Below are positions 2,756-38,442 of a stretch of DNA of 64,000 bases, one piece after another. The notes beneath the pieces are model-generated. The model was not told the origin of the DNA. It searched no databases and saw only the letters and a list, made by a program, of their open reading frames with translations. Position 1 is the first letter of the stretch, and every line of letters starts with the position of its first letter. The position numbers and the translations under genes are program-made. The DNA is from a virus (taxonomy: Duplodnaviria > Heunggongvirae > Uroviricota > Caudoviricetes): IMG/VR virus record IMGVR_UViG_3300031992_000010, one strand, 5' to 3'.

Positions 2756-3583
2756 GTGACAAATTTATACGAAAGTTTAATACGATTCTTTGGTCCGCGA
2801 TATGATGGACATATACATACATTTGACCACACCGGCCGGTTAAATATGCAAATACCGGATTATTTTAAGGGTGTGGTTGGCTTTTGCGATATTGATTTTG
2901 ACGCCATTCCGGAGTATGAGGATAGGGGGTTATTACATATATATGATTCGCATATTAAATACCTCAAAAACAATACATTAAAATACAAGGAAATATTATT
3001 GGCAACCGGCATATCACCAAAACAGGCCATTGAGGTATATGAAAAATATCCGGAGGAAATCCGTGGTTTCGGGGAATTAAAGTGTTATGCCACACATACA
3101 AAGGGGGATGAGTTGGTGGCGAATTTACCCTATGCAAATCTCGATTATTGGATGGAATTATTTAATTATAATATTGATAAACGACTACCAATATATATCC
3201 ATTATAATCTATCCACAAGGATACAAAAAAATCGATTTGAAAAATTATTAAAGGAATATACAATGTTCCCGATTATTCTTTGCCATTGCGGGATGAGTTA
3301 TAAAACCGGTGATAATGATGTGGTATTTGATTGGGTTGTTGATATGGCAAAGCAATATAATAATCTTTATCTCGACGTGTCATACGCCGCGATGGATTAT
3401 TTCCTGGCAAATCCAAACAAATTACTTATGTTACCACAAAATCGGACGTTTATTGGTTCGGATATAAACATCAAATACATAAACCTACAAAGGGATCCGC
3501 AGGTATGGTATAATAAATGTCTTAAAATTTATAAATATATACCGACAAGTGATGCCAATATAAAAAAATTATTCAATATATAA
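2756..3583 (+). CDS. amidohydrolase-family (TIM barrel) metallo-hydrolase
   Basis: DGHIH, IYIH, CHCG, LYLDVS, GSD motifs; GTG start; leader MTNLYESL. Confidence 0.7.
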   Translation: MTNLYESLIRFFGPRYDGHIHTFDHTGRLNMQIPDYFKGVVGFCDIDFDAIPEYEDRGLLHIYDSHIKYLKNNTLKYKEILLATGISPKQAIEVYEKYPEEIRGFGELKCYATHTKGDELVANLPYANLDYWMELFNYNIDKRLPIYIHYNLSTRIQKNRFEKLLKEYTMFPIILCHCGMSYKTGDNDVVFDWVVDMAKQYNNLYLDVSYAAMDYFLANPNKLLMLPQNRTFIGSDINIKYINLQRDPQVWYNKCLKIYKYIPTSDANIKKLFNI

Positions 3584-4749
3584 TGGATTCATTAAAAAAC
3601 TTTATAATGGAGAGTTTGGCTGATAATATGATGAAATTGTCACCATCAAATAAACGCAAACTAATTGAACTCGATAAGGAATTTAACCGGTTGGCAAAAC
3701 TCCGTAAGGACGATTACGGTGGCAATGATGTATTGAATGCCGATGCTGAATGGGAAAGGTTTATTGAAGCCAAAAAACACGGGGGAAAATATTTTCCGGT
3801 ATTAAAAGTGAATAAAAATCAATATGATACGGATGATATTATCCCGGACCTAAAAAAGTTATATAATGAATTTGCGGGGTTCCGTGAGTGTTTCCTTTCA
3901 AAATATTATATGGATGTAATTATGTGGATGCTGCATTATTGCCAATTCTTTATTGACAAGGAGAAAAATAAAAAATTAATATACCAGGACAAAACATTGG
4001 ATGAAAAAACATTCGACGAGGCATTAAAAATAATATCCTCCACAAAGGTTACACCAACAGGTGATTTGCATCGGGATAAGGATGCAAAATATGCCGCGGA
4101 TAAAATTAAAAAGGCGTTGGATGAACTGGGTTATGATTGGAAGGTGGTTATTAAAAATAATATGATGCCCCGGATGAGTGTTGACTCTTTTGGAAATATT
4201 AAAATCAGTAAGGATGCCAAGTTTAGTGATGTGGATATCGATAGTTTAATTGCCCACGAGGTAAAGGGACACGTTGCACGCCGTTATTATGGATACCAAA
4301 CAGGTCTATACCTTTTCGTACACGGCCTATATGGACGCAATATCCTTGATGAAGGCCTTGCCATTTGGAATTCATTGAACCTGACCAGGAAACAAAAACC
4401 CAACGTATTATTTACCATAGCGTTAAAATATGTAATTGTATACCTATTCAAAACACGAAATTTTTGCGATGTATATGATTACCTCGATGATTTGATTGAT
4501 AAAAATTATTCAAGAAAAATCCTATTTAAATCGATGATTCGTGCAAAACGGGAAAATAGGGACTGCTCCTTGTTAGGCGGCTTGGCGGACGATGCCGAAT
4601 ATTTTTACGGGTATAAATTGGTAAAACGCATGGATAAAACGGAGAGGGAAAATATATTAAAATATAACGTTGGTGTGGAGCAATTATATGATATTGATAA
4701 TATCAAAAAATTCCTCGATATTAATAAATTTGAACCATTAAAAATATAA
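3583..4749 (+). CDS. DUF1704 / MATCAP-like metallocarboxypeptidase
   Basis: HEVKGH (HExxxH) plus DEGLA motif and C-terminal Y..GY. Confidence 0.75.
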   Translation: MDSLKNFIMESLADNMMKLSPSNKRKLIELDKEFNRLAKLRKDDYGGNDVLNADAEWERFIEAKKHGGKYFPVLKVNKNQYDTDDIIPDLKKLYNEFAGFRECFLSKYYMDVIMWMLHYCQFFIDKEKNKKLIYQDKTLDEKTFDEALKIISSTKVTPTGDLHRDKDAKYAADKIKKALDELGYDWKVVIKNNMMPRMSVDSFGNIKISKDAKFSDVDIDSLIAHEVKGHVARRYYGYQTGLYLFVHGLYGRNILDEGLAIWNSLNLTRKQKPNVLFTIALKYVIVYLFKTRNFCDVYDYLDDLIDKNYSRKILFKSMIRAKRENRDCSLLGGLADDAEYFYGYKLVKRMDKTERENILKYNVGVEQLYDIDNIKKFLDINKFEPLKI

Positions 4750-18979: not shown

Positions 18980-19190
18980 AAAAATTAATATAAAGTTAAA
19001 TTTTTGGATATACCATTTTATTATTAAAACAAATTAATGCAAAAATGCTAAACCTGAATTTACATATGATATCCTTTGGAGGCATTCAAACACCCAAACG
19101 TAATTGGGCGAATGAAAGCGTCTATGATATCCGGATATGAAGGTTTTGTACAATACCATGAACATTTTTAGAATTGGGATAAGCGCTGAA

Positions 19191-19230
19191 AAACCTTCAA
19201 ATAAAAAAAATTTGAAGGTTTTTTTATTTT
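19191..19230 (+). terminator. intrinsic terminator
   Basis: AAACCTTCAAA...TTTGAAGGTTT plus T tract. Confidence 0.65.
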
Positions 19231-19234
19231 TCGT

Positions 19235-19263
19235 TAAATTTTTTGAAAATTGTTTATATATTA
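19235..19263 (+). promoter_or_regulatory. bipartite motif, putative promoter of tRNA array
   Basis: TAAATTTTT-TGAAAATTGTTT-ATATATTA. Confidence 0.7.
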
Positions 19264-19412
19264 ATTTGTAAAATTTAGAAAGAGAACATTGACAGAGGTC
19301 GAAAGACCCAAACGGGAAATAGGAAATTGACGGAAGCATTTACGACAATGATGCTTGAGGTGAAATGGATATCGGTAAAACGAGCCATCCGTGACCAAAA
19401 AACCTCAAATTT

Positions 19413-19485
19413 GCCTCGTTAGTATAGCCGGTTATTATACCTGACTTGTAATCAGGGGACCGCGGTTCGAATCCGTGACGAGGCT
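19413..19485 (+). tRNA. tRNA-Thr(TGT)
   Basis: Cloverleaf; CCTGA-CT TGT AA-TCAGG. Confidence 0.9.
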
Positions 19486-19712
19486 CTCACGAGAAGATGG
19501 AATGATATCACACTTCCCCTGACAATCAAAAAGTGATATCAATTTACAATTTGTGCACACAATTGTAGGAATGGAGATCTTGAAGGATGGTACTCCACGT
19601 TAAATACTAAAAGACCTCCTGCCTATAACAATGAGTCATCCATTTAGTAGGATCCGGAAGTACAGGTTTGGATTCCGGAAAAGGTGTTGCAAATACATCC
19701 CATTGTATTCTT

Positions 19713-19784
19713 GGGCTTGTCGTATAAAGGTAATTACGGGTGCCTGTTAAGCACTTTATGGTGGTTCGAGTCCACCCGAGCCCG
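19713..19784 (+). tRNA. tRNA-Asn(GTT)
   Basis: GTGC-CT GTT AA-GCAC; acceptor GGGCTTG/CGAGCCC. Confidence 0.85.
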
Positions 19785-20067
19785 CACGGTTTACTGATCC
19801 TTCCATAAAAAGGATGTACATAAATTTGCGGTACGATAGATTGTCAACCGTGGGTGTGAGGGGTTCTACCGAAAATCCCCGTTTTAGTAGAGCAGCAGCT
19901 GATCAGGTTCTACGGAGTGAGGTCGAAAAACTCTTTTCTAAAATTGCGTTATGTGGGAATGGCTGACCAGCATCCACAATTTGCCGGACGTGGGGCGTGT
20001 GTGAATAATCCGGAAGAACAACACACAATGATTGGTACGAATCCCACTGACGTAATAAATTTAATTT

Positions 20068-20140
20068 GGGCCGGTAGCATAATTGGCTAATGCGCTTGAC
20101 TTGCAATCAGGAAGATAGGGTTCGAGCCCCTCCGTGTCCA
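20068..20140 (+). tRNA. tRNA-Ala(TGC), imperfect acceptor stem
   Basis: CT TGC AA loop; first 19 nt identical to tRNA-Arg(ACG) at 22563. Confidence 0.75.
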
Positions 20141-20200
20141 CAACAACAATGTAGTTATCATATAGACTCCGCCCCGCGTGAGGATTCCGTAGGGGCAAAT

Positions 20201-20283
20201 GGGCTTGTGGTGGAATTGGTAGAGCACGCCTGACTTAGGATCAGGTGCCGAAAGGCGTGAGGGTTCGAGTCCCTCCAAGCCCA
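20201..20283 (+). tRNA. tRNA-Leu(TAG)
   Basis: CCTGA-CT TAG GA-TCAGG, long variable arm. Confidence 0.9.
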
Positions 20284-20460
20284 CAAAATCAAATCCTAAC
20301 TCAAGATTGACACTTGAGGGTTGTGAAGTAAAGATACGGATATAAACCGCGCGGTGAAGACGGTGATACTTCGGAAAGATGGAATATAAAGCAATGGCCA
20401 TAAGTAAAATCCATCCCACGATGGGTAGTACCATACGGATAGTAAAGATTTGGTTTTAAT

Positions 20461-20537
20461 ACCGGGATATCCCCTCTATCTTATACATAGTGGAAAGGGT
20501 AGTTGGTCACAGGTGGGTTCGATCCCCTCGCCCGGTA
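20461..20537 (+). ncRNA. tRNA-like element lacking D-arm, possible TAT anticodon
   Basis: ACCGGG/CCCGGT acceptor, GGG-TTCGATC-CCC T-arm, CTAT-CT TAT AC-ATAG hairpin. Confidence 0.4.
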
Positions 20538-20553
20538 CAAAAATTGATATTTC

Positions 20554-20627
20554 GCCCCTTTGGCGTAGTGGTTTAGCGCGCCTGTTTTACACACAGTGGG
20601 TCGGTGGTTCAAATCCATCAAGGGGCA
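20554..20627 (+). tRNA. tRNA-Val(TAC)
   Basis: CTGT-TT TAC AC-ACAG. Confidence 0.9.
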
Positions 20628-20909
20628 CAAAACAATACAACAGGTGGATGACACAGGTTGAAGCCCTGTATGGTGATCCCATTAGTTAAGTTAGACTTTA
20701 ATATTCGCCTGTTTCAATACAAATCGGTCAATCTCCATTGTGATCCAACTGATAAGTGAAGGAGTGTACATTTACGAGGGACTTGAGGATGAGAATGGTT
20801 TATTAAGGGTTGATTTTTGAAGGGGTAAGTATTGGGAAGGTTGCAAACGAACCAATATGGATCCGGATGACTTGAGGATGTGAACGGCCTGCCGATTTTT
20901 TAGGATTAT

Positions 20910-20985
20910 AGCGGGATGGACTGGAGATGGTTACCAGCCCGGTCTCATAAGCCGGATGACGTGGGTTCGAATCCCACTCCCGCCA
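20910..20985 (+). tRNA. tRNA-Met(CAT), initiator-like
   Basis: CT CAT AA loop; A1:C72 mismatch. Confidence 0.85.
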
Positions 20986-21061
20986 CAAATAGGCTGGCAA
21001 CACATAAAATGTAGTGCCTGTTTACAAGTCACATTATCTGCAGTAATATGATTTGGTTTTC

Positions 21062-21174
21062 TTGATTGTAGTTTAATTCCATTGTGGAGGTAGAGCGACG
21101 GCTTTAATTCCATTGTGGAGGTAGAACGATGGCCAGTTAAGCCGAGGGTAATGGTTCGAGCCCATTCAATCAAG
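21062..21174 (+). pseudogene. tRNA-Asn(GTT)-like gene with internal 31-nt tandem duplication
   Basis: TTGATTG/CAATCAA acceptor; copies at 21072-21102 and 21103-21133 (2 mismatches); loop CA GTT AA. Confidence 0.6.
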
Positions 21175-21179
21175 CAAAT

Positions 21180-21253
21180 GGAGTTGGTAGTTCAGTTGGT
21201 AGAACACCGGTTTGTGGAACCGGTAGTCGCGGGTTCAAATCCCACCCAACTCC
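21180..21253 (+). tRNA. tRNA-His(GTG) copy 1
   Basis: TT GTG GA loop, encoded G-1:C73. Confidence 0.9.
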
Positions 21254-21258
21254 CTAAT

Positions 21259-21332
21259 GCCGTGGTAGCCCAAATGGTAGAGGCAATAGACTTGGAATCT
21301 ATGTAGTGAGAGTTCGAATCTCCCCGTTCCCA
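21259..21332 (+). pseudogene. chimeric tRNA-Pro(TGG)-like gene with unpaired acceptor
   Basis: 5' half GCCGTGG matches the Leu(CAA) gene at 21640 and cannot pair with 3' CGTTCCC. Confidence 0.6.
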
Positions 21333-21481
21333 CAAAGAAGTCTCCTTATTTGGAGCATTATATGATTTAGGTCTCACTAATTGTGTGAATTTACGGTGAG
21401 AGAAGTTAGGTGATCACACAACACCATGAACTTCCGTGGTATTCTAATTGAAACCCACAACGGTACGTGAAGCCGTTTTAT

Positions 21482-21555
21482 TGTTGCGTAATTCAATTGG
21501 TTAGAATGTCAGACTTTGATTCTGAAGGTTAGGGGTTCGAGTCCCTTCGCAACAA
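21482..21555 (+). tRNA. tRNA-Gln(TTG)
   Basis: TCAGA-CT TTG AT-TCTGA. Confidence 0.9.
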
Positions 21556-21560
21556 CACAT

Positions 21561-21634
21561 GGAGTTGGTAGTTTAGTTGGTAGAACACCGGTTTGTGGAA
21601 CCGGTAGTCGTGGGTTCGAATCCCACCCAACTCC
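21561..21634 (+). tRNA. tRNA-His(GTG) copy 2
   Basis: Near-identical to 21180 copy. Confidence 0.9.
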
Positions 21635-21639
21635 CTAAT

Positions 21640-21713
21640 GCCGTGGTAGCCCAATTGGTAGAGGCATTGGATTCAAAACCCAATCAGTGTAGGTTCGAGT
21701 CCTACCTACGGCA
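21640..21713 (+). tRNA. tRNA-Leu(CAA) with short variable loop
   Basis: TT CAA AA loop; 5-nt variable region. Confidence 0.75.
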
Positions 21714-21718
21714 CACAT

Positions 21719-21853
21719 GTCTGCGCGGATGGACTTTCTATCACGTGAGTGCGCATAGTTTGGTAGAAGGGAGCTTGGAAAGCCTTATCATCTATTTTTG
21801 TCAATATTCGCGATATTGTTGGCAAATATGAGGTTCGATTCCTTACGTAGGCA
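21719..21853 (+). ncRNA. oversized (135 nt) tRNA-like gene, possible GGA anticodon
   Basis: GTCTGCG/CGTAGGC acceptor, TGAGG-TTCGATT-CCTTA T-arm, long variable hairpin, expanded D region. Confidence 0.5.
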
Positions 21854-21860
21854 CAATTTT

Positions 21861-21945
21861 GGGGAAGCGGCTACGATGGTGGAGTGGCACCGGACTGTAA
21901 ATCCGGCACATAGAAACACAGGGGGTTCGAATCCCTCCTTCCCCA
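21861..21945 (+). tRNA. tRNA-Tyr(GTA)
   Basis: CCGGA-CT GTA AA-TCCGG. Confidence 0.9.
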
Positions 21946-21951
21946 CATTAT

Positions 21952-22023
21952 TCCCCGATCGTCTAACGGTTAGGACGCCAGGTTTTCAACCTGTAAATCC
22001 GGGTTCGATTCCCGGCCGGGGGA
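21952..22023 (+). tRNA. tRNA-Glu(TTC)
   Basis: CAGG-TT TTC AA-CCTG. Confidence 0.85.
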
Positions 22024-22027
22024 CTAT

Positions 22028-22100
22028 GACCTCGTAACTCAATTGGCAGAGTACCACCCTTTTAAGGTGGGAGTTCCGGGTTCAAATCCCGGCGGGGTCA
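22028..22100 (+). tRNA. tRNA-Lys(TTT)
   Basis: CCACC-CT TTT AA-GGTGG. Confidence 0.9.
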
Positions 22101-22109
22101 CAAAATTAT

Positions 22110-22182
22110 GGTCTTGTAACTTAATTGGTAGAGTACCTCACTCTTAATGAGGGAGTTAAGGGTTCGAGCCCCTTCGGGACCA
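22110..22182 (+). tRNA. tRNA-Lys(CTT)
   Basis: CCTCA-CT CTT AA-TGAGG. Confidence 0.9.
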
Positions 22183-22400
22183 CGAAAATCCATCGGACAA
22201 GGCTTTGGCGATGAGGATTATTAAAATGGTGGGAGGGCAAATGACAAACCTTTGGGTTTAAAGGTGAACCGGTGGCCCACAACCTTTATGGATAAAACCT
22301 ATAATGCCGGTACAGTGTGGACGAGGCTACCACACGGTCCATTTGAACCACATATAATAATCCAACAGGTCGGTGGGACGCGGGTGGATGGGTTTTTAAT

Positions 22401-22474
22401 GGGCATTTAGCGCAATTGGTTAGAGCATCCGCCTGATACGCGGAAGGTTGATGGTTCGAGTCCATCAGTGCCCA
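22401..22474 (+). tRNA. tRNA-Ile(GAT)
   Basis: TCCGC-CT GAT AC-GCGGA. Confidence 0.9.
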
Positions 22475-22481
22475 CAATATT

Positions 22482-22557
22482 GGTCCACGGGGATGCCTGG
22501 TGTGTCCGCCTGCCTGTCACGCAGGATATCAGTCCGGTTCGAATCCGGAGTGGACCG
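22482..22557 (+). tRNA. tRNA-Asp(GTC)
   Basis: CCTGC-CT GTC AC-GCAGG. Confidence 0.9.
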
Positions 22558-22562
22558 CAATT

Positions 22563-22638
22563 GGGCCGGTAGCATAATTGGAATTAATGTACCTGGCTAC
22601 GAACCAGGCGATTGGGGGTTCGAATCCCTCCCGGCCTA
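22563..22638 (+). tRNA. tRNA-Arg(ACG)
   Basis: CCTGG-CT ACG AA-CCAGG. Confidence 0.9.
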
Positions 22639-22655
22639 CAAAATTTTTATTAATT

Positions 22656-22823
22656 ATGGAGGAGAAATTATTTGAGTGGTTGAAATTTCGTTTTATACGG
22701 GACAATCATAAACGGTATCACAAATATTTTGATGAATGGATATCAAACATCACACAATCCCAAATTGAGGGATTTAAAAAATGTATGTTTTATGATACCG
22801 AAAAGGTTTTAATGCGGGGTTAG
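22656..22823 (+). CDS. small hypothetical protein inside tRNA array
   Basis: 55 aa AT-rich ORF MEEKLFEWLK..., AATTATG start context, stop overlaps tRNA-Gly. Confidence 0.45.
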   Translation: MEEKLFEWLKFRFIRDNHKRYHKYFDEWISNITQSQIEGFKKCMFYDTEKVLMRG

Positions 22824-22885
22824 CACAATGGTTAGTGCTCCGGTCTTCCAAACCGGAGATGAGGGTTCGATTCCCTTACCCCGCT
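22814..22885 (+). tRNA. tRNA-Gly(TCC)
   Basis: CCGGT-CT TCC AA-ACCGG, U73. Confidence 0.9.
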
Positions 22886-22959
22886 CGATAATGGAATAGT
22901 GCGGCACTTGGACGAGTTTCGGGGATCTCGTCCCAATGAAAATAATAAAACCCCGTCCC
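22886..22959 (+). repeat. inter-tRNA pseudoknot spacer, copy 1
   Basis: TTGGACGAG/CTCGTC stem, CGGGG loop, A-rich linker, CCCCG; second copy at 24464. Confidence 0.65.
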
Positions 22960-23050
22960 AGGGTAGTGGAGGAGTTAGGTCAACCTCGCTTGGTTTGGGA
23001 CCAAGAGGATGCTGTAATGGCTGGCGCCGGTTCGAATCCGGCCTACCCTA
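22960..23050 (+). tRNA. tRNA-Pro(TGG) with long variable region
   Basis: CTTGG-TT TGG GA-CCAAG; about 20 nt variable region. Confidence 0.75.
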
Positions 23051-23054
23051 CTAT

Positions 23055-23143
23055 GGAGGTGTGGCAGAATTGGTTGATGCACCGGTCTTGAAAACCGGCG
23101 GGTACATAATATGGCCTTGGGGGTTCGAGTCCCTCCACCTCCG
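23055..23143 (+). tRNA. tRNA-Ser(TGA)
   Basis: CCGGT-CT TGA AA-ACCGG, long arm, G73. Confidence 0.9.
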
Positions 23144-23235
23144 CAGAACTTGGGTATATGATTCCAACCACGAATTGGATGATTATATGAGGTTTATTCC
23201 AAATGGTGTGTTTCGTGGACATCTACATTTGGTTT

Positions 23236-23306
23236 GAATTGTTCGTCTAACGGGAGGACAGGGGCCGGGACGGCCCCGAATATTGGTTCGAATCCAATAC
23301 AATTCC
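23236..23306 (+). ncRNA. tRNA-like gene with non-canonical anticodon loop
   Basis: Intact acceptor, D and T arms; anticodon arm GGGGC-CGGGACG-GCCCC lacks U33 and a purine 37. Confidence 0.55.
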
Positions 23307-23313
23307 AATTTTT

Positions 23314-23428
23314 TGGGGGATAGGAGAATGGTATACCCACCCTATGTTGATTAGGGAGCCCACTAATAGTTATCGAGGGAATAAGTGGGGGTGGTAACAC
23401 CTTGATGGTTCGAATCCATCTCCTCCAA
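23314..23428 (+). ncRNA. oversized (115 nt) tRNA-Gln(TTG)-like gene
   Basis: TGGGGGA/TCCTCCA acceptor, CCCTA-TG TTG AT-TAGGG, two extra hairpins in the variable region, normal T-arm. Confidence 0.55.
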
Positions 23429-23640
23429 CGCAATTGCGGCCTAACGTGTTTAACACAGTAGGAGAAAGCAAGGTACACATAGTCGCATATAAATGCGGAG
23501 GTACACGGAGCCTTGCCAATCCTATTTGTTAGGAAAACGTGTCGGTGTATATGGCATATGGCCGGCGTATATTGGCTCATCAATATACAATCGACAAAGT
23601 CCGTGGAACGGGATGTGCGATGGCGCCGCCTTCCCTATTT

Positions 23641-23713
23641 GGACCTTTGGTGTAAGAGGTGTGCTCACCGGACTGAAAATCCGGAGGTTGTGGTTCGACT
23701 CCACGAGGGTCCA
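23641..23713 (+). tRNA. tRNA-Phe(GAA)
   Basis: CCGGA-CT GAA AA-TCCGG. Confidence 0.9.
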
Positions 23714-23842
23714 CGTGAAAGGGTGTAGTGTATGCTTTCCACCATTGGTCCCACGGGTAGATGGCTGGGGGTTCCTCATTATGCACCAACCAACCTTTGG
23801 GGCGGTATCGATTCTGAAAGGAGGACAAAAGGAACCAAATAT

Positions 23843-23928
23843 GGAGGGGTAACCCTAATTGGTAAGGGAGCGGTTTGCTAAACCGCCAGTAGTCGTAAGA
23901 CGTGCAGGTTCGAGTCCTGCCCTCTCCG
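23843..23928 (+). tRNA. tRNA-Ser(GCT)
   Basis: GCGGT-TT GCT AA-ACCGC, long arm. Confidence 0.9.
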
Positions 23929-23934
23929 CAACCT

Positions 23935-24019
23935 GGCCGGGTGACGTAATGGTAGGCGTAGGGGACTTAAAATCCCCTGAACAGCAATGTTCGTGTGGGT
24001 TCGAGTCCCACCTCGGCCA
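23935..24019 (+). tRNA. tRNA-Leu(TAA)
   Basis: GGGGA-CT TAA AA-TCCCC, long arm. Confidence 0.9.
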
Positions 24020-24315
24020 CAATACGGAGGAGCGGTTCAACCCCGCGTTCGTTGAATAGGCTGGCGCAATGCTCGCGGAAAAGGTCAGCAGTAAACACGA
24101 TAATGGTGTAACGCAAGCACGCCGTAGGACAACATTGAAAACACCTGGGAACAGGCGAGAAGAGAGGTAGTAAGTATCGTGGGACATCAAATGCGCAAAA
24201 AATCCACACGATTCTCTGCGAAATCCGCATAATTGAGGCCTTGAGAAGCGGATTCATAAGACCAAGGGAAATTGATGATTGAAGCTGGTCTACTCGTTTC
24301 AATGTTTTTTTATTT

Positions 24316-24387
24316 GGCCTTGTCGAATAAGGGTTAGTTCACAGGATTCTCAATCCTGTTATCCGGGTTCAAATCCCGGCGAGGCTA
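24316..24387 (+). tRNA. tRNA-Glu(CTC)
   Basis: CAGGA-TT CTC AA-TCCTG. Confidence 0.9.
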
Positions 24388-24391
24388 CTAT

Positions 24392-24463
24392 GTGTGGTGG
24401 CCGGGTCGGTTTACGGGCCGGTCTGCAAAACCGGTTAGGTTGGTTCAATTCCAACACCACACT
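24392..24463 (+). tRNA. tRNA-Cys(GCA)
   Basis: CCGGT-CT GCA AA-ACCGG, U73. Confidence 0.85.
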
Positions 24464-24543
24464 CGATGATGGGTCGCGCCCATCTTGGACGAGTATGAGT
24501 TCGGGGGACCTCGTCTCAACGAAAATAATAAAACCCCGTCCAT
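24464..24543 (+). repeat. inter-tRNA pseudoknot spacer, copy 2
   Basis: Same stem, G-rich loop, GAAAATAATAAAACCCCGTCC as the 22886 copy. Confidence 0.65.
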
Positions 24544-24615
24544 AGCCCTGTCGTATAACGGTTATTACATCGGGTTTTGGACCCGAGAATCGTGGTTCGA
24601 CTCCACGTGGGGCCA
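24544..24615 (+). tRNA. tRNA-Gln(TTG) second gene
   Basis: TCGGG-TT TTG GA-CCCGA; weak acceptor stem. Confidence 0.75.
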
Positions 24616-24620
24616 CACAT

Positions 24621-24693
24621 TGGTGCTTGGTGTTAGTGGTTAGCATCCCGGTCTCCAAAACCGGCGGGGAAGGTTCGAGTCCTTCAGCACCTG
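24621..24693 (+). tRNA. tRNA-Trp(CCA)
   Basis: CCGGT-CT CCA AA-ACCGG. Confidence 0.85.
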
Positions 24694-24822
24694 CTTTTCA
24701 TATCCTTTTACTTACATCGCCGGGATTTCCTTCCCGGTAGGAGGGTGTTACACTTATGGGCCGGGCCACCGGCCGGTCGCAATACACCCACAGGTATACA
24801 ATACGTGATGTTGCCCATTTTT

Positions 24823-24895
24823 ACCCTGTTAATTCAATTGGTTAGAATACAGGTCTTCTAAACCTGACATATAGGTTCGATTCCTATACGGGGTA
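24823..24895 (+). tRNA. tRNA-Arg(TCT)
   Basis: CAGGT-CT TCT AA-ACCTG. Confidence 0.9.
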
Positions 24896-25017
24896 CGAAA
24901 TTTCCTATTTCCCAAAATCCGTATCGTTCGGTGATGGTCGACTTATCCGAAATCGAAATACACCGGCCCATCGCAAGGTGGTCCAAATACCGGTCCAAAT
25001 CGTTGGTTGGCCTTTTT

Positions 25018-37440: not shown

Positions 37441-38442
37441 ATGAAACTTGACGATAGATTAAAGGAATTGGATGGCCAATGGTCGGTGACACGGCTCATA
37501 ACACCTATAAATATACAGGACTCGTATGAGGATCGTATGCTTGTAAATTGGGTACCCCAATATAAGGAGGTTGAGTTCGATAGATTATTGGATGCCTATA
37601 ATGAGGTGTTGGAAAACATCGACTCATATGAATTTGATGAAAAATTGAGGATACATTATGTGGCAAAAATAAACGAATGCCTTGAATACCTTACCGCATT
37701 TAAGGACCGCGACCCGATGGCGATAACAAATATCCACGGAATTACCGATCTTGGGTTTCTATTAAAACATAAAAAACGGTTGGATGAAATTTGTGAACAA
37801 ACCATAAATTATACATATCCGACAAATACATATGCACCGGAATATGCGACCGGTTACCTTCAATCGGTTCTTGACCAACGCCACCTGCCATATAGTTGTG
37901 AAACACGTGATATAATAGCAAAGGTTACGGTACAGCATAGTACCAATAAGGTGTATATAAATGGTTCCGCAACGTATGGACGTAATGAACTCCGCCGTCT
38001 TACGGAACACGAAATAGGTACACATATAGTACGTGCCATGGCCGGGAGTGAAAAGGGGTACCTATTCAAAAAAGGTTTTGCCAAGTATATCGAGTTGGAG
38101 GAGGGTCTTGCCATTTATAGTGAGGTGGCGGCGGGCTATCCGGAGGGGTTGGTTAGAACATACCTACGATTGGTTGCCACAAACCTTTGTATGGAAAACA
38201 CGTTCGAGGATATGTATAAAAAAATGTGTGACCAATTCCCAAATATTGACAAACAGCAAATTTACGATATATGTTTCCGTATAAAACGAGGTCTTGCCAA
38301 TTTCAATGACTTTGGGGGATATACGAAGGATCGGCTTTACATTACCGGATACCTCAAACTTTGCGATATGACAAGGAGTAAACGTAAAATAGAGAAAATC
38401 CGATTGGATGGAAAGACAAATTTTGATTATTATAAAAAATAA
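37441..38442 (+). CDS. DUF1704 / MATCAP-like metallocarboxypeptidase, second copy
   Basis: EHEIGTH, EEGLA, TKDRLYITGY. Confidence 0.8.
   Translation: MKLDDRLKELDGQWSVTRLITPINIQDSYEDRMLVNWVPQYKEVEFDRLLDAYNEVLENIDSYEFDEKLRIHYVAKINECLEYLTAFKDRDPMAITNIHGITDLGFLLKHKKRLDEICEQTINYTYPTNTYAPEYATGYLQSVLDQRHLPYSCETRDIIAKVTVQHSTNKVYINGSATYGRNELRRLTEHEIGTHIVRAMAGSEKGYLFKKGFAKYIELEEGLAIYSEVAAGYPEGLVRTYLRLVATNLCMENTFEDMYKKMCDQFPNIDKQQIYDICFRIKRGLANFNDFGGYTKDRLYITGYLKLCDMTRSKRKIEKIRLDGKTNFDYYKK

What the first reader, a model, noticed from the sequence alone, without database searches (positions are those of the whole stretch)
22886..24543. Duplicated H-type pseudoknot spacer bridging tRNA pairs
Seen: both spacers (22886-22959 Gly to Pro; 24464-24543 Cys to Gln) start CGAT(A/G)ATGG right after a U73 tRNA. 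Each then forms a 9-bp bulged stem whose CGGGG loop can pair with CCCCG after GAAAATAATAAAA, ending within 5 nt of the next tRNA 5' end. Known: A-rich linkers stabilise H-type pseudoknots, as in type III antitoxin RNAs, and some gut-phage tRNAs are flanked by ribozymes. Inference: a processing signal, nuclease block, or released small RNA such as an antitoxin mimic.
Basis: partly seen in the sequence, partly recalled or inferred. Interest (0 to 1): 0.7.

Follow-up and report, generated by a model that had tools for sequence, protein, structure and literature searches.

The report
Knotted small RNA among phage tRNAs
A group of rumen phages carries, slotted between its tRNA genes like one more gene, an undescribed 70-80-base folded RNA whose end looks like the end of a tRNA; it is probably cut out and used as a decoy, but its job is untested.

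Summary
Observation confirmed; interpretation partly. The two spacers are copies of one structured RNA, found 8 times in this phage and five related lineages. It has a 5' hairpin (covarying in four lineages: 23/24 cells paired, 5 of 6 pairs changed on both sides; weak in copy 1), stem S1 (one compensatory change), an invariant CGGGG/CCCCG pairing (conserved, no covariation) and an A-rich linker. It does not 'bridge tRNA pairs': three copies have no upstream tRNA, and CGA is a generic tRNA trailer. The constant feature is that the knot ends 4-5 nt before a tRNA (Pro, Gln or Gly), with an N-CCA-like tail. Those tRNAs occur without it in relatives, so it is not a required processing signal. The array is abundant in rumen RNA. 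Rfam has no match; theta/HDV ribozyme and type III antitoxin membership tests failed; no bacterial counterpart was found. Best reading: a small RNA gene released by host tRNA processing (like T4 RNAC/RNAD) that acts in trans, possibly as a TYMV-style tRNA-end decoy. Function is inferred only. This scan noted similar, non-homologous tRNA-spacer pseudoknots on other genomes.

The parts
22814..22885 (+). tRNA-Gly(UCC), U73, no encoded CCA; upstream neighbour of copy 1 (not part of the element)
22886..22889 (+). Ordinary tRNA trailer (C74-G-A-U), not specific to the element
   Evidence: C74 in 110/114 tRNA genes; CGA also follows tRNAs without the element
22898..22908 (+). Copy 1, weak 5' hairpin (4 bp, 3-nt loop), same type as in L232
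   Evidence: -0.7 kcal/mol; inference
22908..22936 (+). Copy 1, stem S1 (22908-22916 with 22927-22936) enclosing L1 (22917-22919), the S2 5' strand CGGGG (22920-22924) and L2
22937..22950 (+). Copy 1, A-rich linker L3 (inferred minor-groove A-minor strand along S1)
   Evidence: near-invariant in 8 copies; triples inferred
22951..22959 (+). Copy 1, S2 3' strand CCCCG (22951-22955) and 4-nt tail UCCC
22960..23050 (+). tRNA-Pro(UGG), downstream neighbour; atypical (A1-U72, about 20-nt variable arm)
24392..24463 (+). tRNA-Cys(GCA), U73; upstream neighbour of copy 2
24468..24484 (+). Copy 2, 5' hairpin P0 (6 bp, loop UCGCG), strongly covarying
24485..24519 (+). Copy 2, stem S1 (24485-24493 with 24510-24519) enclosing L1 (24494-24501), CGGGG (24502-24506) and L2
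24520..24533 (+). Copy 2, A-rich linker L3
24534..24543 (+). Copy 2, S2 3' strand CCCCG (24534-24538) and tail U-CCA-U
24544..24615 (+). tRNA-Gln(UUG), downstream neighbour of copy 2

Best explanation
The element is a free-standing small non-coding RNA gene (5' hairpin + H-type pseudoknot + 4-5-nt tail), tiled into the phage tRNA operon like a tRNA gene. It is transcribed with the array. Host RNase P, cutting at +1 of the next tRNA, makes its 3' end; 3' processing of the upstream tRNA (or a transcript start) makes its 5' end. The released RNA resists 3'-to-5' decay because the knot sits 4-5 nt from the end. It most likely acts in trans as a decoy for a host RNA-binding protein. The leading candidate is one that reads tRNA acceptor ends, because the terminal 5-bp helix plus N-CCA-like overhang has the geometry of the pseudoknotted acceptor of tymovirus tRNA-like structures. 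SHOWN: sequence conservation, P0 and S1 pairing, position, mobility among tRNA neighbours, presence of the array in RNA libraries. INFERRED: the S2 pseudoknot and triples, excision, stability, decoy role.
For: 8 copies in 6 lineages, kept even in the reduced array of L234/L289. P0: 23/24 cells paired, 5 of 6 pairs changed on both sides, 0/500 shuffles as high. S1: A-U to U-A change in L234, and a G-U/G-C switch that fits the + strand. L1 varies from 3 to 11 nt and L2 from 2 to 8 nt while S2 and L3 stay fixed. Neighbours change (Pro, Gln, Gly downstream; Gly, Cys or no tRNA upstream), and the other spacers are also cassettes shuffled between relatives. Gaps to neighbouring tRNAs are as short as tRNA-tRNA gaps. 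Tails: U-CCA x3, G-CCA, U-CUA, U-ACA x2, U-CCC, against mostly AU-rich ordinary leaders. S2 equals the top five pairs of tRNA-Pro(UGG) in 4 of 5 Bacteroidota genomes checked. RNA contigs at depth about 120-690 over the array against 1-9 over flanking genes in sheep-rumen run X1. Pseudoknots with a 3' RCCA are RNase P substrates (PMC12710915); defence enzymes attack tRNA CCA ends (PMC11559606, PMC12851939).
Against: No read-level data show a discrete RNA or its ends; only assembled contigs were available. S2 has no compensatory change and loses or bulges one pair in L234/L289. A full N-CCA is present in only 4 of 8 copies, three of them near-identical, and the discriminator is U or G, not the A of tRNA-Pro. 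A GC-rich 5-bp helix matches some tRNA acceptor fairly easily. There is no T-loop or anticodon arm. No partner protein was identified. A competing nested fold is predicted for copy 2 and L227. The sample is small and related.
Confidence: 0.45

Rival explanations
1. Cis-acting boundary element: the knot organises processing or stability of the tRNA precursor (keeps the 5' leader of the next tRNA single-stranded for RNase P, insulates G/C-rich acceptor strands from mispairing, or stops 3'-to-5' decay) and has no role after release.
For: The distance to the downstream tRNA is fixed at 4-5 nt in all 8 copies. In L289 it follows an RNA ligase gene and a small ORF, whose mRNA end it could cap.
Against: The same tRNAs occur without it in relatives. 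In five copies the only upstream RNA is a tRNA, which needs no cap. In L234 it follows a terminator-like inverted repeat. A 5'-to-3' block has no obvious target: RNase J passed its cut-off in 0 of 101 Bacteroidota genomes. The covarying hairpin P0 with its conserved loop is more than a barrier needs.
Confidence: 0.25
2. Orphan RNA antitoxin mimic: the released pseudoknot binds and neutralises a host toxic RNase of the type III kind.
For: Like CptI and TenpI it has an H-type core with a long A-rich loop along S1 (PMC13682666). Phage antitoxin mimics are known (own knowledge: PhiTE pseudo-ToxI).
Against: CptI/TenpI have a 1-nt L1 and single-stranded ends that bind the toxin; here L1 is 3-11 nt, the 5' end is a hairpin and the 3' end is 4-5 nt and not A-rich. 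No Rfam match at E<=10. ToxN over cut-off in 0 of 401 Bacteroidota genomes. No match near 29 AbiF loci. No counterpart in GTDB pattern scans or in 151 genomes searched with the model. CptN and TenpN families were not searched.
Confidence: 0.12
3. A new self-cleaving ribozyme or ligand-binding aptamer that controls tRNA release.
For: Theta ribozymes sit beside gut-phage tRNAs (PMC10879173). Several unpaired positions are invariant. Compact pseudoknots with A-rich tails bind ligands in preQ1 and SAM-II riboswitches (own knowledge).
Against: HDV/theta descriptor: the control is recovered, the element is not. No hammerhead core. No ribozyme or riboswitch family in Rfam at E<=10. The 5' junction with a tRNA, where theta ribozymes cut, is absent in 3 of 8 copies. 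There is no expression platform.
Confidence: 0.08
4. Neutral remnant, for example a decayed tRNA-Pro fragment or a duplicated spacer that hitchhikes during array shuffling.
For: S2 resembles a tRNA-Pro acceptor; the array contains duplications and degenerate tRNA-like pieces (D6).
Against: Compensatory changes in P0 and S1, and retention across lineages with 61-78% protein identity, including a much-reduced array.
Confidence: 0.04

Closest known systems
Phage T4 RNAC and RNAD (species 1 and 2), small RNAs of the T4 tRNA region (PMC3014915, PMC9697503)
   Same: Small non-tRNA RNA genes inside a phage tRNA cluster, transcribed with it, function unknown.
   Different: No sequence or structural relation shown; this RNA is shorter (70-80 nt), has no T-arm, and is pseudoknotted.
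Tymovirus tRNA-like structure (TYMV TLS; Rfam RF00233)
   Same: H-type pseudoknot whose terminal helix carries a short N-CCA-type overhang; such ends are RNase P substrates (PMC12710915).
   Different: No T-arm, D-arm or anticodon arm; long A-rich L3; CCA complete in only half of the copies; DNA phage of bacteria. The RF00233 hits in the array fall on real tRNA-Gly genes, not on the element.
Type III antitoxin RNAs CptI / TenpI / ToxI (PMC13682666, PMC12283969)
   Same: H-type pseudoknot with a long A-rich loop along S1.
   Different: Variable 3-11-nt L1, extra covarying 5' hairpin, no single-stranded toxin-binding flanks, no tandem array, no toxin gene, no sequence match.
Theta (minimal HDV-like) ribozymes of gut phages (PMC10879173)
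   Same: Small structured RNA adjacent to CCA-less tRNAs in a gut phage with a probable Bacteroidota host.
   Different: Single H-type knot rather than a nested double pseudoknot; tied to the tRNA 5' side, not the 3' side; fails the descriptor.

Membership tests
Theta / HDV-like ribozyme | Nested double pseudoknot: 6-7-bp P1 starting at +1, P2, 3-bp P3, catalytic C in J4/2 | tested here: not met
   the published theta sequence is recovered (7-bp P1, 7-bp P2); four copies give nothing, four give only lowest-stringency, inconsistent matches
Theta / HDV-like ribozyme | Cleavage site at a tRNA 3' end | tested here: not met
   3 of 8 copies have no upstream tRNA
Theta / HDV-like ribozyme | Self-cleavage in vitro | not testable with these tools
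   needs an assay
Type III antitoxin (ToxI/CptI/TenpI) | H-type pseudoknot with A-rich loop along S1 | tested here: inconclusive
   S1 covaries; S2 complementarity is conserved but shows no paired change
Type III antitoxin (ToxI/CptI/TenpI) | Single-stranded 5' and 3' flanks that bind the toxin; 1-nt L1 in CptI/TenpI | tested here: not met
   5' hairpin P0, 4-5-nt tail, L1 3-11 nt (features from PMC13682666)
Type III antitoxin (ToxI/CptI/TenpI) | Tandem repeats upstream of a toxin gene, or a matching host locus for a mimic | tested here: not met
   Single dispersed copies; no bacterial counterpart found in those searched; CptN and TenpN loci not searched
Type III antitoxin (ToxI/CptI/TenpI) | Neutralises a toxin | not testable with these tools
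   needs an assay
Tymovirus-type tRNA-like structure | Pseudoknotted terminal helix followed by N-CCA | tested here: inconclusive
   Geometry fits; full N-CCA in 4 of 8 copies, CCA-like in the rest
Tymovirus-type tRNA-like structure | T-, D- and anticodon-like arms; match to RF00233 | tested here: not met
   Only one extra hairpin; no RF00233 hit on the element
Tymovirus-type tRNA-like structure | CCA addition and aminoacylation | not testable with these tools
   needs an assay
Small stable RNAs of phage tRNA clusters (T4 RNAC/RNAD kind) | Non-tRNA structured gene inside a transcribed phage tRNA cluster | tested here: met
Small stable RNAs of phage tRNA clusters (T4 RNAC/RNAD kind) | Accumulates as a discrete processed RNA | not testable with these tools
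   Only contigs were available
Any Rfam 15 family | Covariance-model match | tested here: not met
   No meaningful hit on either copy at E<=10 (one E=6.9 chance overlap) or on the L234 copy at E<=5

The most novel reading that the evidence does not exclude
A bacteriophage-encoded, pseudoknotted mimic of the tRNA acceptor end (tRNA-Pro-like top five pairs, non-cognate discriminator, no anticodon). It is matured by RNase P and the CCA-adding enzyme and absorbs host defence enzymes that attack tRNA CCA ends (toxSAS, MenT-type nucleotidyltransferases, Cas12a3-like nucleases): a plant-virus-style tRNA-like structure used as anti-defence by a DNA phage.
Probability: 0.2. Interest if true: 0.85.

Novelty: new variant of a known kind. 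Interest (0 to 1): 0.52.

Why it matters
Small RNAs in phage tRNA clusters have been known since T4 and still have no assigned function. This one is short, has a defined fold and natural variants, and moves between array positions, so it is easy to synthesise and test. If it is a tRNA-end decoy, it would link phage tRNA arrays to defence systems that attack tRNA CCA ends. Limits: it was found only in one uncultured rumen phage clade, and the function is inference.

Tried and rejected
Pattern scans of viral contigs found only a 97-99% identical relative; all other hits lacked S1 or S2. Two GTDB pattern scans gave nothing real. BLAST of cultured phages gave nothing. The RNA model found nothing in 22 more distant phage records of up to 410 kb, in loci of distant relatives, or in 151 Bacteroidota genomes (best hits lack the stems). 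The relative L228 (61% protein identity) has a protein gene and no model match at this position. Alternative pairing of the S1 5' strand with the 3' tail works in five copies and partly in copy 1, but is broken in L232, L234 and L289: rejected as the conserved fold. Antisense terminator (T-run on the minus strand): the hairpin is not conserved and G-U pairs point to the + strand. RNA contigs of two studies begin at 22908 (X3) and 22913 (X2), at the S1 5' arm, but X1 has one contig across the site, so this is a weak hint only. Runs with small word shares (X4-X8) were not used as evidence. In one search my S2 columns were off by one on an inconsistent alignment, so S2 counts come from the curated parse. 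Two tRNA-Pro patterns written from memory or with wrong spacing failed; the corrected one worked. Literature searches found no description of this RNA; most subscription journals are not in the library.

Full report
Setting. The window is part of a large uncultured phage (head protease, neck, helicase and T4-like genes). Contigs carrying near-identical proteins reach 162-210 kb. Its RNA is found in sheep-rumen metatranscriptomes. A Bacteroidota host is inferred, not shown: the nearest cultured relatives of the neck protein are Tenacibaculum, Chryseobacterium and PAU phages, and only 6 of 56 start regions carry a Shine-Dalgarno-like word, with A enriched at -3 and -11 to -17 (typical of Bacteroidota, own knowledge). 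Positions 19413-24896 hold 29 tRNA genes on the + strand. None encodes CCA; across related arrays C74 is present in 110 of 114 genes and C75 in none.

Observation. Both spacers are as described, and the duplication is beyond chance. Rfam has no family for them, even at E<=10.

Homologues. Through neighbouring proteins I fetched arrays of related phages and found six more copies: L222 and L226 (Cys to Gln), L227 (Gly to Pro), L232 (another non-coding cassette to Pro), L234 and L289 (ORF region to Gly). A model built from six copies found the diverged L234 copy unaided (E 3.9e-5). L222/L226 and L234/L289 are near-identical pairs, so there are about six independent sequences. L226 is otherwise close to the window (92% identity in the 915-aa protein) yet carries the L222-type copy and lacks the Gly-Pro copy, which points to exchange and loss of the element as a unit.

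Structure. (a) 5' hairpin P0, six pairs around a UCGC(G/U) loop: 23 of 24 cells pair and five of six pairs change on both sides; 0 of 500 shuffles reach this and slid controls give 38-58% (the four rows were cut to 17 nt around the loop, and relatedness is not corrected). Copy 1 and L232 carry only a 4-bp version. (b) S1: core GACGWG/CWCGUC pairs in all copies, with one A-U to U-A change in L234/L289 and a G-U/G-C switch that identifies the + strand; on its own this is not significant against shuffles (76/500). The three outer pairs are absent in L234/L289 by the curated parse. (c) S2: CGGGG/CCCCG in six copies; four pairs, or five with a bulged A, in L234/L289. There is no paired change, so the knot is supported only by conserved complementarity while L1 (3-11 nt) and L2 (2-8 nt) vary freely. 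(d) L3: GAAAAYAAUAAA(A) is nearly invariant, with the length and composition expected of a strand running along the S1 minor groove (inference from CptI/TenpI, PMC13682666). Nested folding predicts a competing rod for copy 2 and L227.

Position. The upstream tRNA is not needed, and CGA after the discriminator also follows tRNAs without the element. The constant is the 3' side: S2 ends 4 or 5 nt before +1 of a tRNA in all eight copies. Ordinary leaders in these arrays are mostly AU-rich; these tails read U-CCA (three), G-CCA, U-CUA, U-ACA (two) and U-CCC. The gaps on both sides are as short as tRNA-tRNA gaps, so the element is tiled like a gene. The other long spacers of the array are also conserved cassettes that change neighbours between relatives.

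Expression. In run X1, contigs over the array have depth about 120-690 (some stretches 24-50) against 1-9 over flanking protein genes; X2 (same sample) and X3 (another study, lower depth) agree in pattern. This shows that the array is transcribed. It does not show a discrete RNA.

Mechanism. RNase P cleavage at the next tRNA would leave a knot with a 4-5-nt overhang. RNase Z, present over cut-off in 45 of 101 Bacteroidota genomes, or another tRNA 3' pathway would free the 5' end. The product has the end geometry of the tymovirus pseudoknotted acceptor; small H-type pseudoknots with a 3' RCCA are cut by RNase P in loop 1 (PMC12710915). S2 equals the top five pairs of tRNA-Pro(UGG) in four of five Bacteroidota genomes, but the discriminator is U or G instead of A, so charging with proline is not expected. 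Defence enzymes that attack CCA ends exist (PMC11559606, PMC12851939). I therefore favour a released RNA acting as a decoy (0.45), with the specific tRNA-end-mimic reading at about 0.2. The tail and acceptor matches are modest evidence, because the sequences are few, related and C-rich.

Rivals. A cis boundary element (0.25) explains the fixed spacing but not the dispensability or P0, and RNase J was not found over cut-off in 101 Bacteroidota genomes. A type III antitoxin mimic (0.12) shares the core fold but fails on flanks and L1, and no host counterpart was found. A ribozyme or aptamer (0.08) fails the theta descriptor, which recovers its positive control. A neutral remnant (0.04) is contradicted by covariation.

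Comparison and novelty. It works most plausibly like T4 RNAC/RNAD (small RNAs of the tRNA region with unknown roles; PMC3014915, PMC9697503), and its end looks like a TYMV tRNA-like structure, but it is a member of neither family, nor of the theta or type III antitoxin families. No paper in the library describes it. This scan has noted several other tRNA-spacer pseudoknots, including a 46-nt ACCA-ended one in gut or rumen phages; none matched this sequence. They are unchecked AI notes and are not counted as support. Verdict: a real, undescribed RNA motif of narrow distribution; new variant of a known kind; interest 0.52.

Noticed in passing
window 22960-23050: tRNA-Pro(UGG) is atypical: A1-U72 instead of C1-G72 and a variable arm of about 20 nt; the Pro genes of L222, L226, L227 and L232 have normal length.
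   Followed up: partly
window 21715-21860: About 140-nt tRNA-like RNA with an acceptor-like stem and a T-arm but an enlarged body; conserved in L222 (91%) and L226 (81%); reminiscent of T4 species 1. No Rfam hit.
   Followed up: partly
window 22184-22400: About 215-nt non-coding cassette after tRNA-Lys, 87% conserved with indels in L222 and L226; no Rfam hit.
   Followed up: no
window 24021-24130: Conserved cassette (L220, L222, L226, part in L232) with a possible loop pairing near its 5' end; nested folding is poor (z +1.6), as expected for a pseudoknot.
   Followed up: partly
window 23307-23640: tRNA-like piece plus a long structured stretch, 89-95% conserved in L226 and L227; a part is kept even in the reduced arrays of L234 and L289.
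   Followed up: no
window 19230-19412: Leader at the head of the array, after a strong inverted repeat (19188-19224); conserved in five relatives, including the reduced arrays. Candidate structured RNA or promoter region.
   Followed up: no
window 23145-23235, 24131-24315, 24695-24822: Further conserved non-coding cassettes that sit beside different tRNAs in relatives; 24700-24815 folds better than all 200 shuffles (z -3.0).
   Followed up: partly
window 19413-24896 and related arrays: tRNA genes keep C74 (110/114) but never C75 (0/114): CCA is avoided while the first C is kept, which suggests a specific 3' maturation route.
   Followed up: partly
window 21145-21320 and 21526-21701: Direct duplication (82% identical) covering tRNA-His and the following tRNA-Leu-like gene; the first copy of the latter is degenerate.
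   Followed up: no
L289:10452-11330: An RNA ligase gene (PF09414) lies inside the reduced tRNA array, about 190 nt upstream of the element; the near-identical L234 lacks it.
   Followed up: partly
window 19798-20274: Highest RNA depth of the array in run X1 (about 690) covers the non-tRNA stretch between tRNA-Asn and tRNA-Ala plus the Ala and Leu genes; possibly an abundant unannotated RNA.
   Followed up: no
window 3583-4749 and 37441-38442: Two phage genes match the MATCAP peptidase family (PF08014).
   Followed up: no
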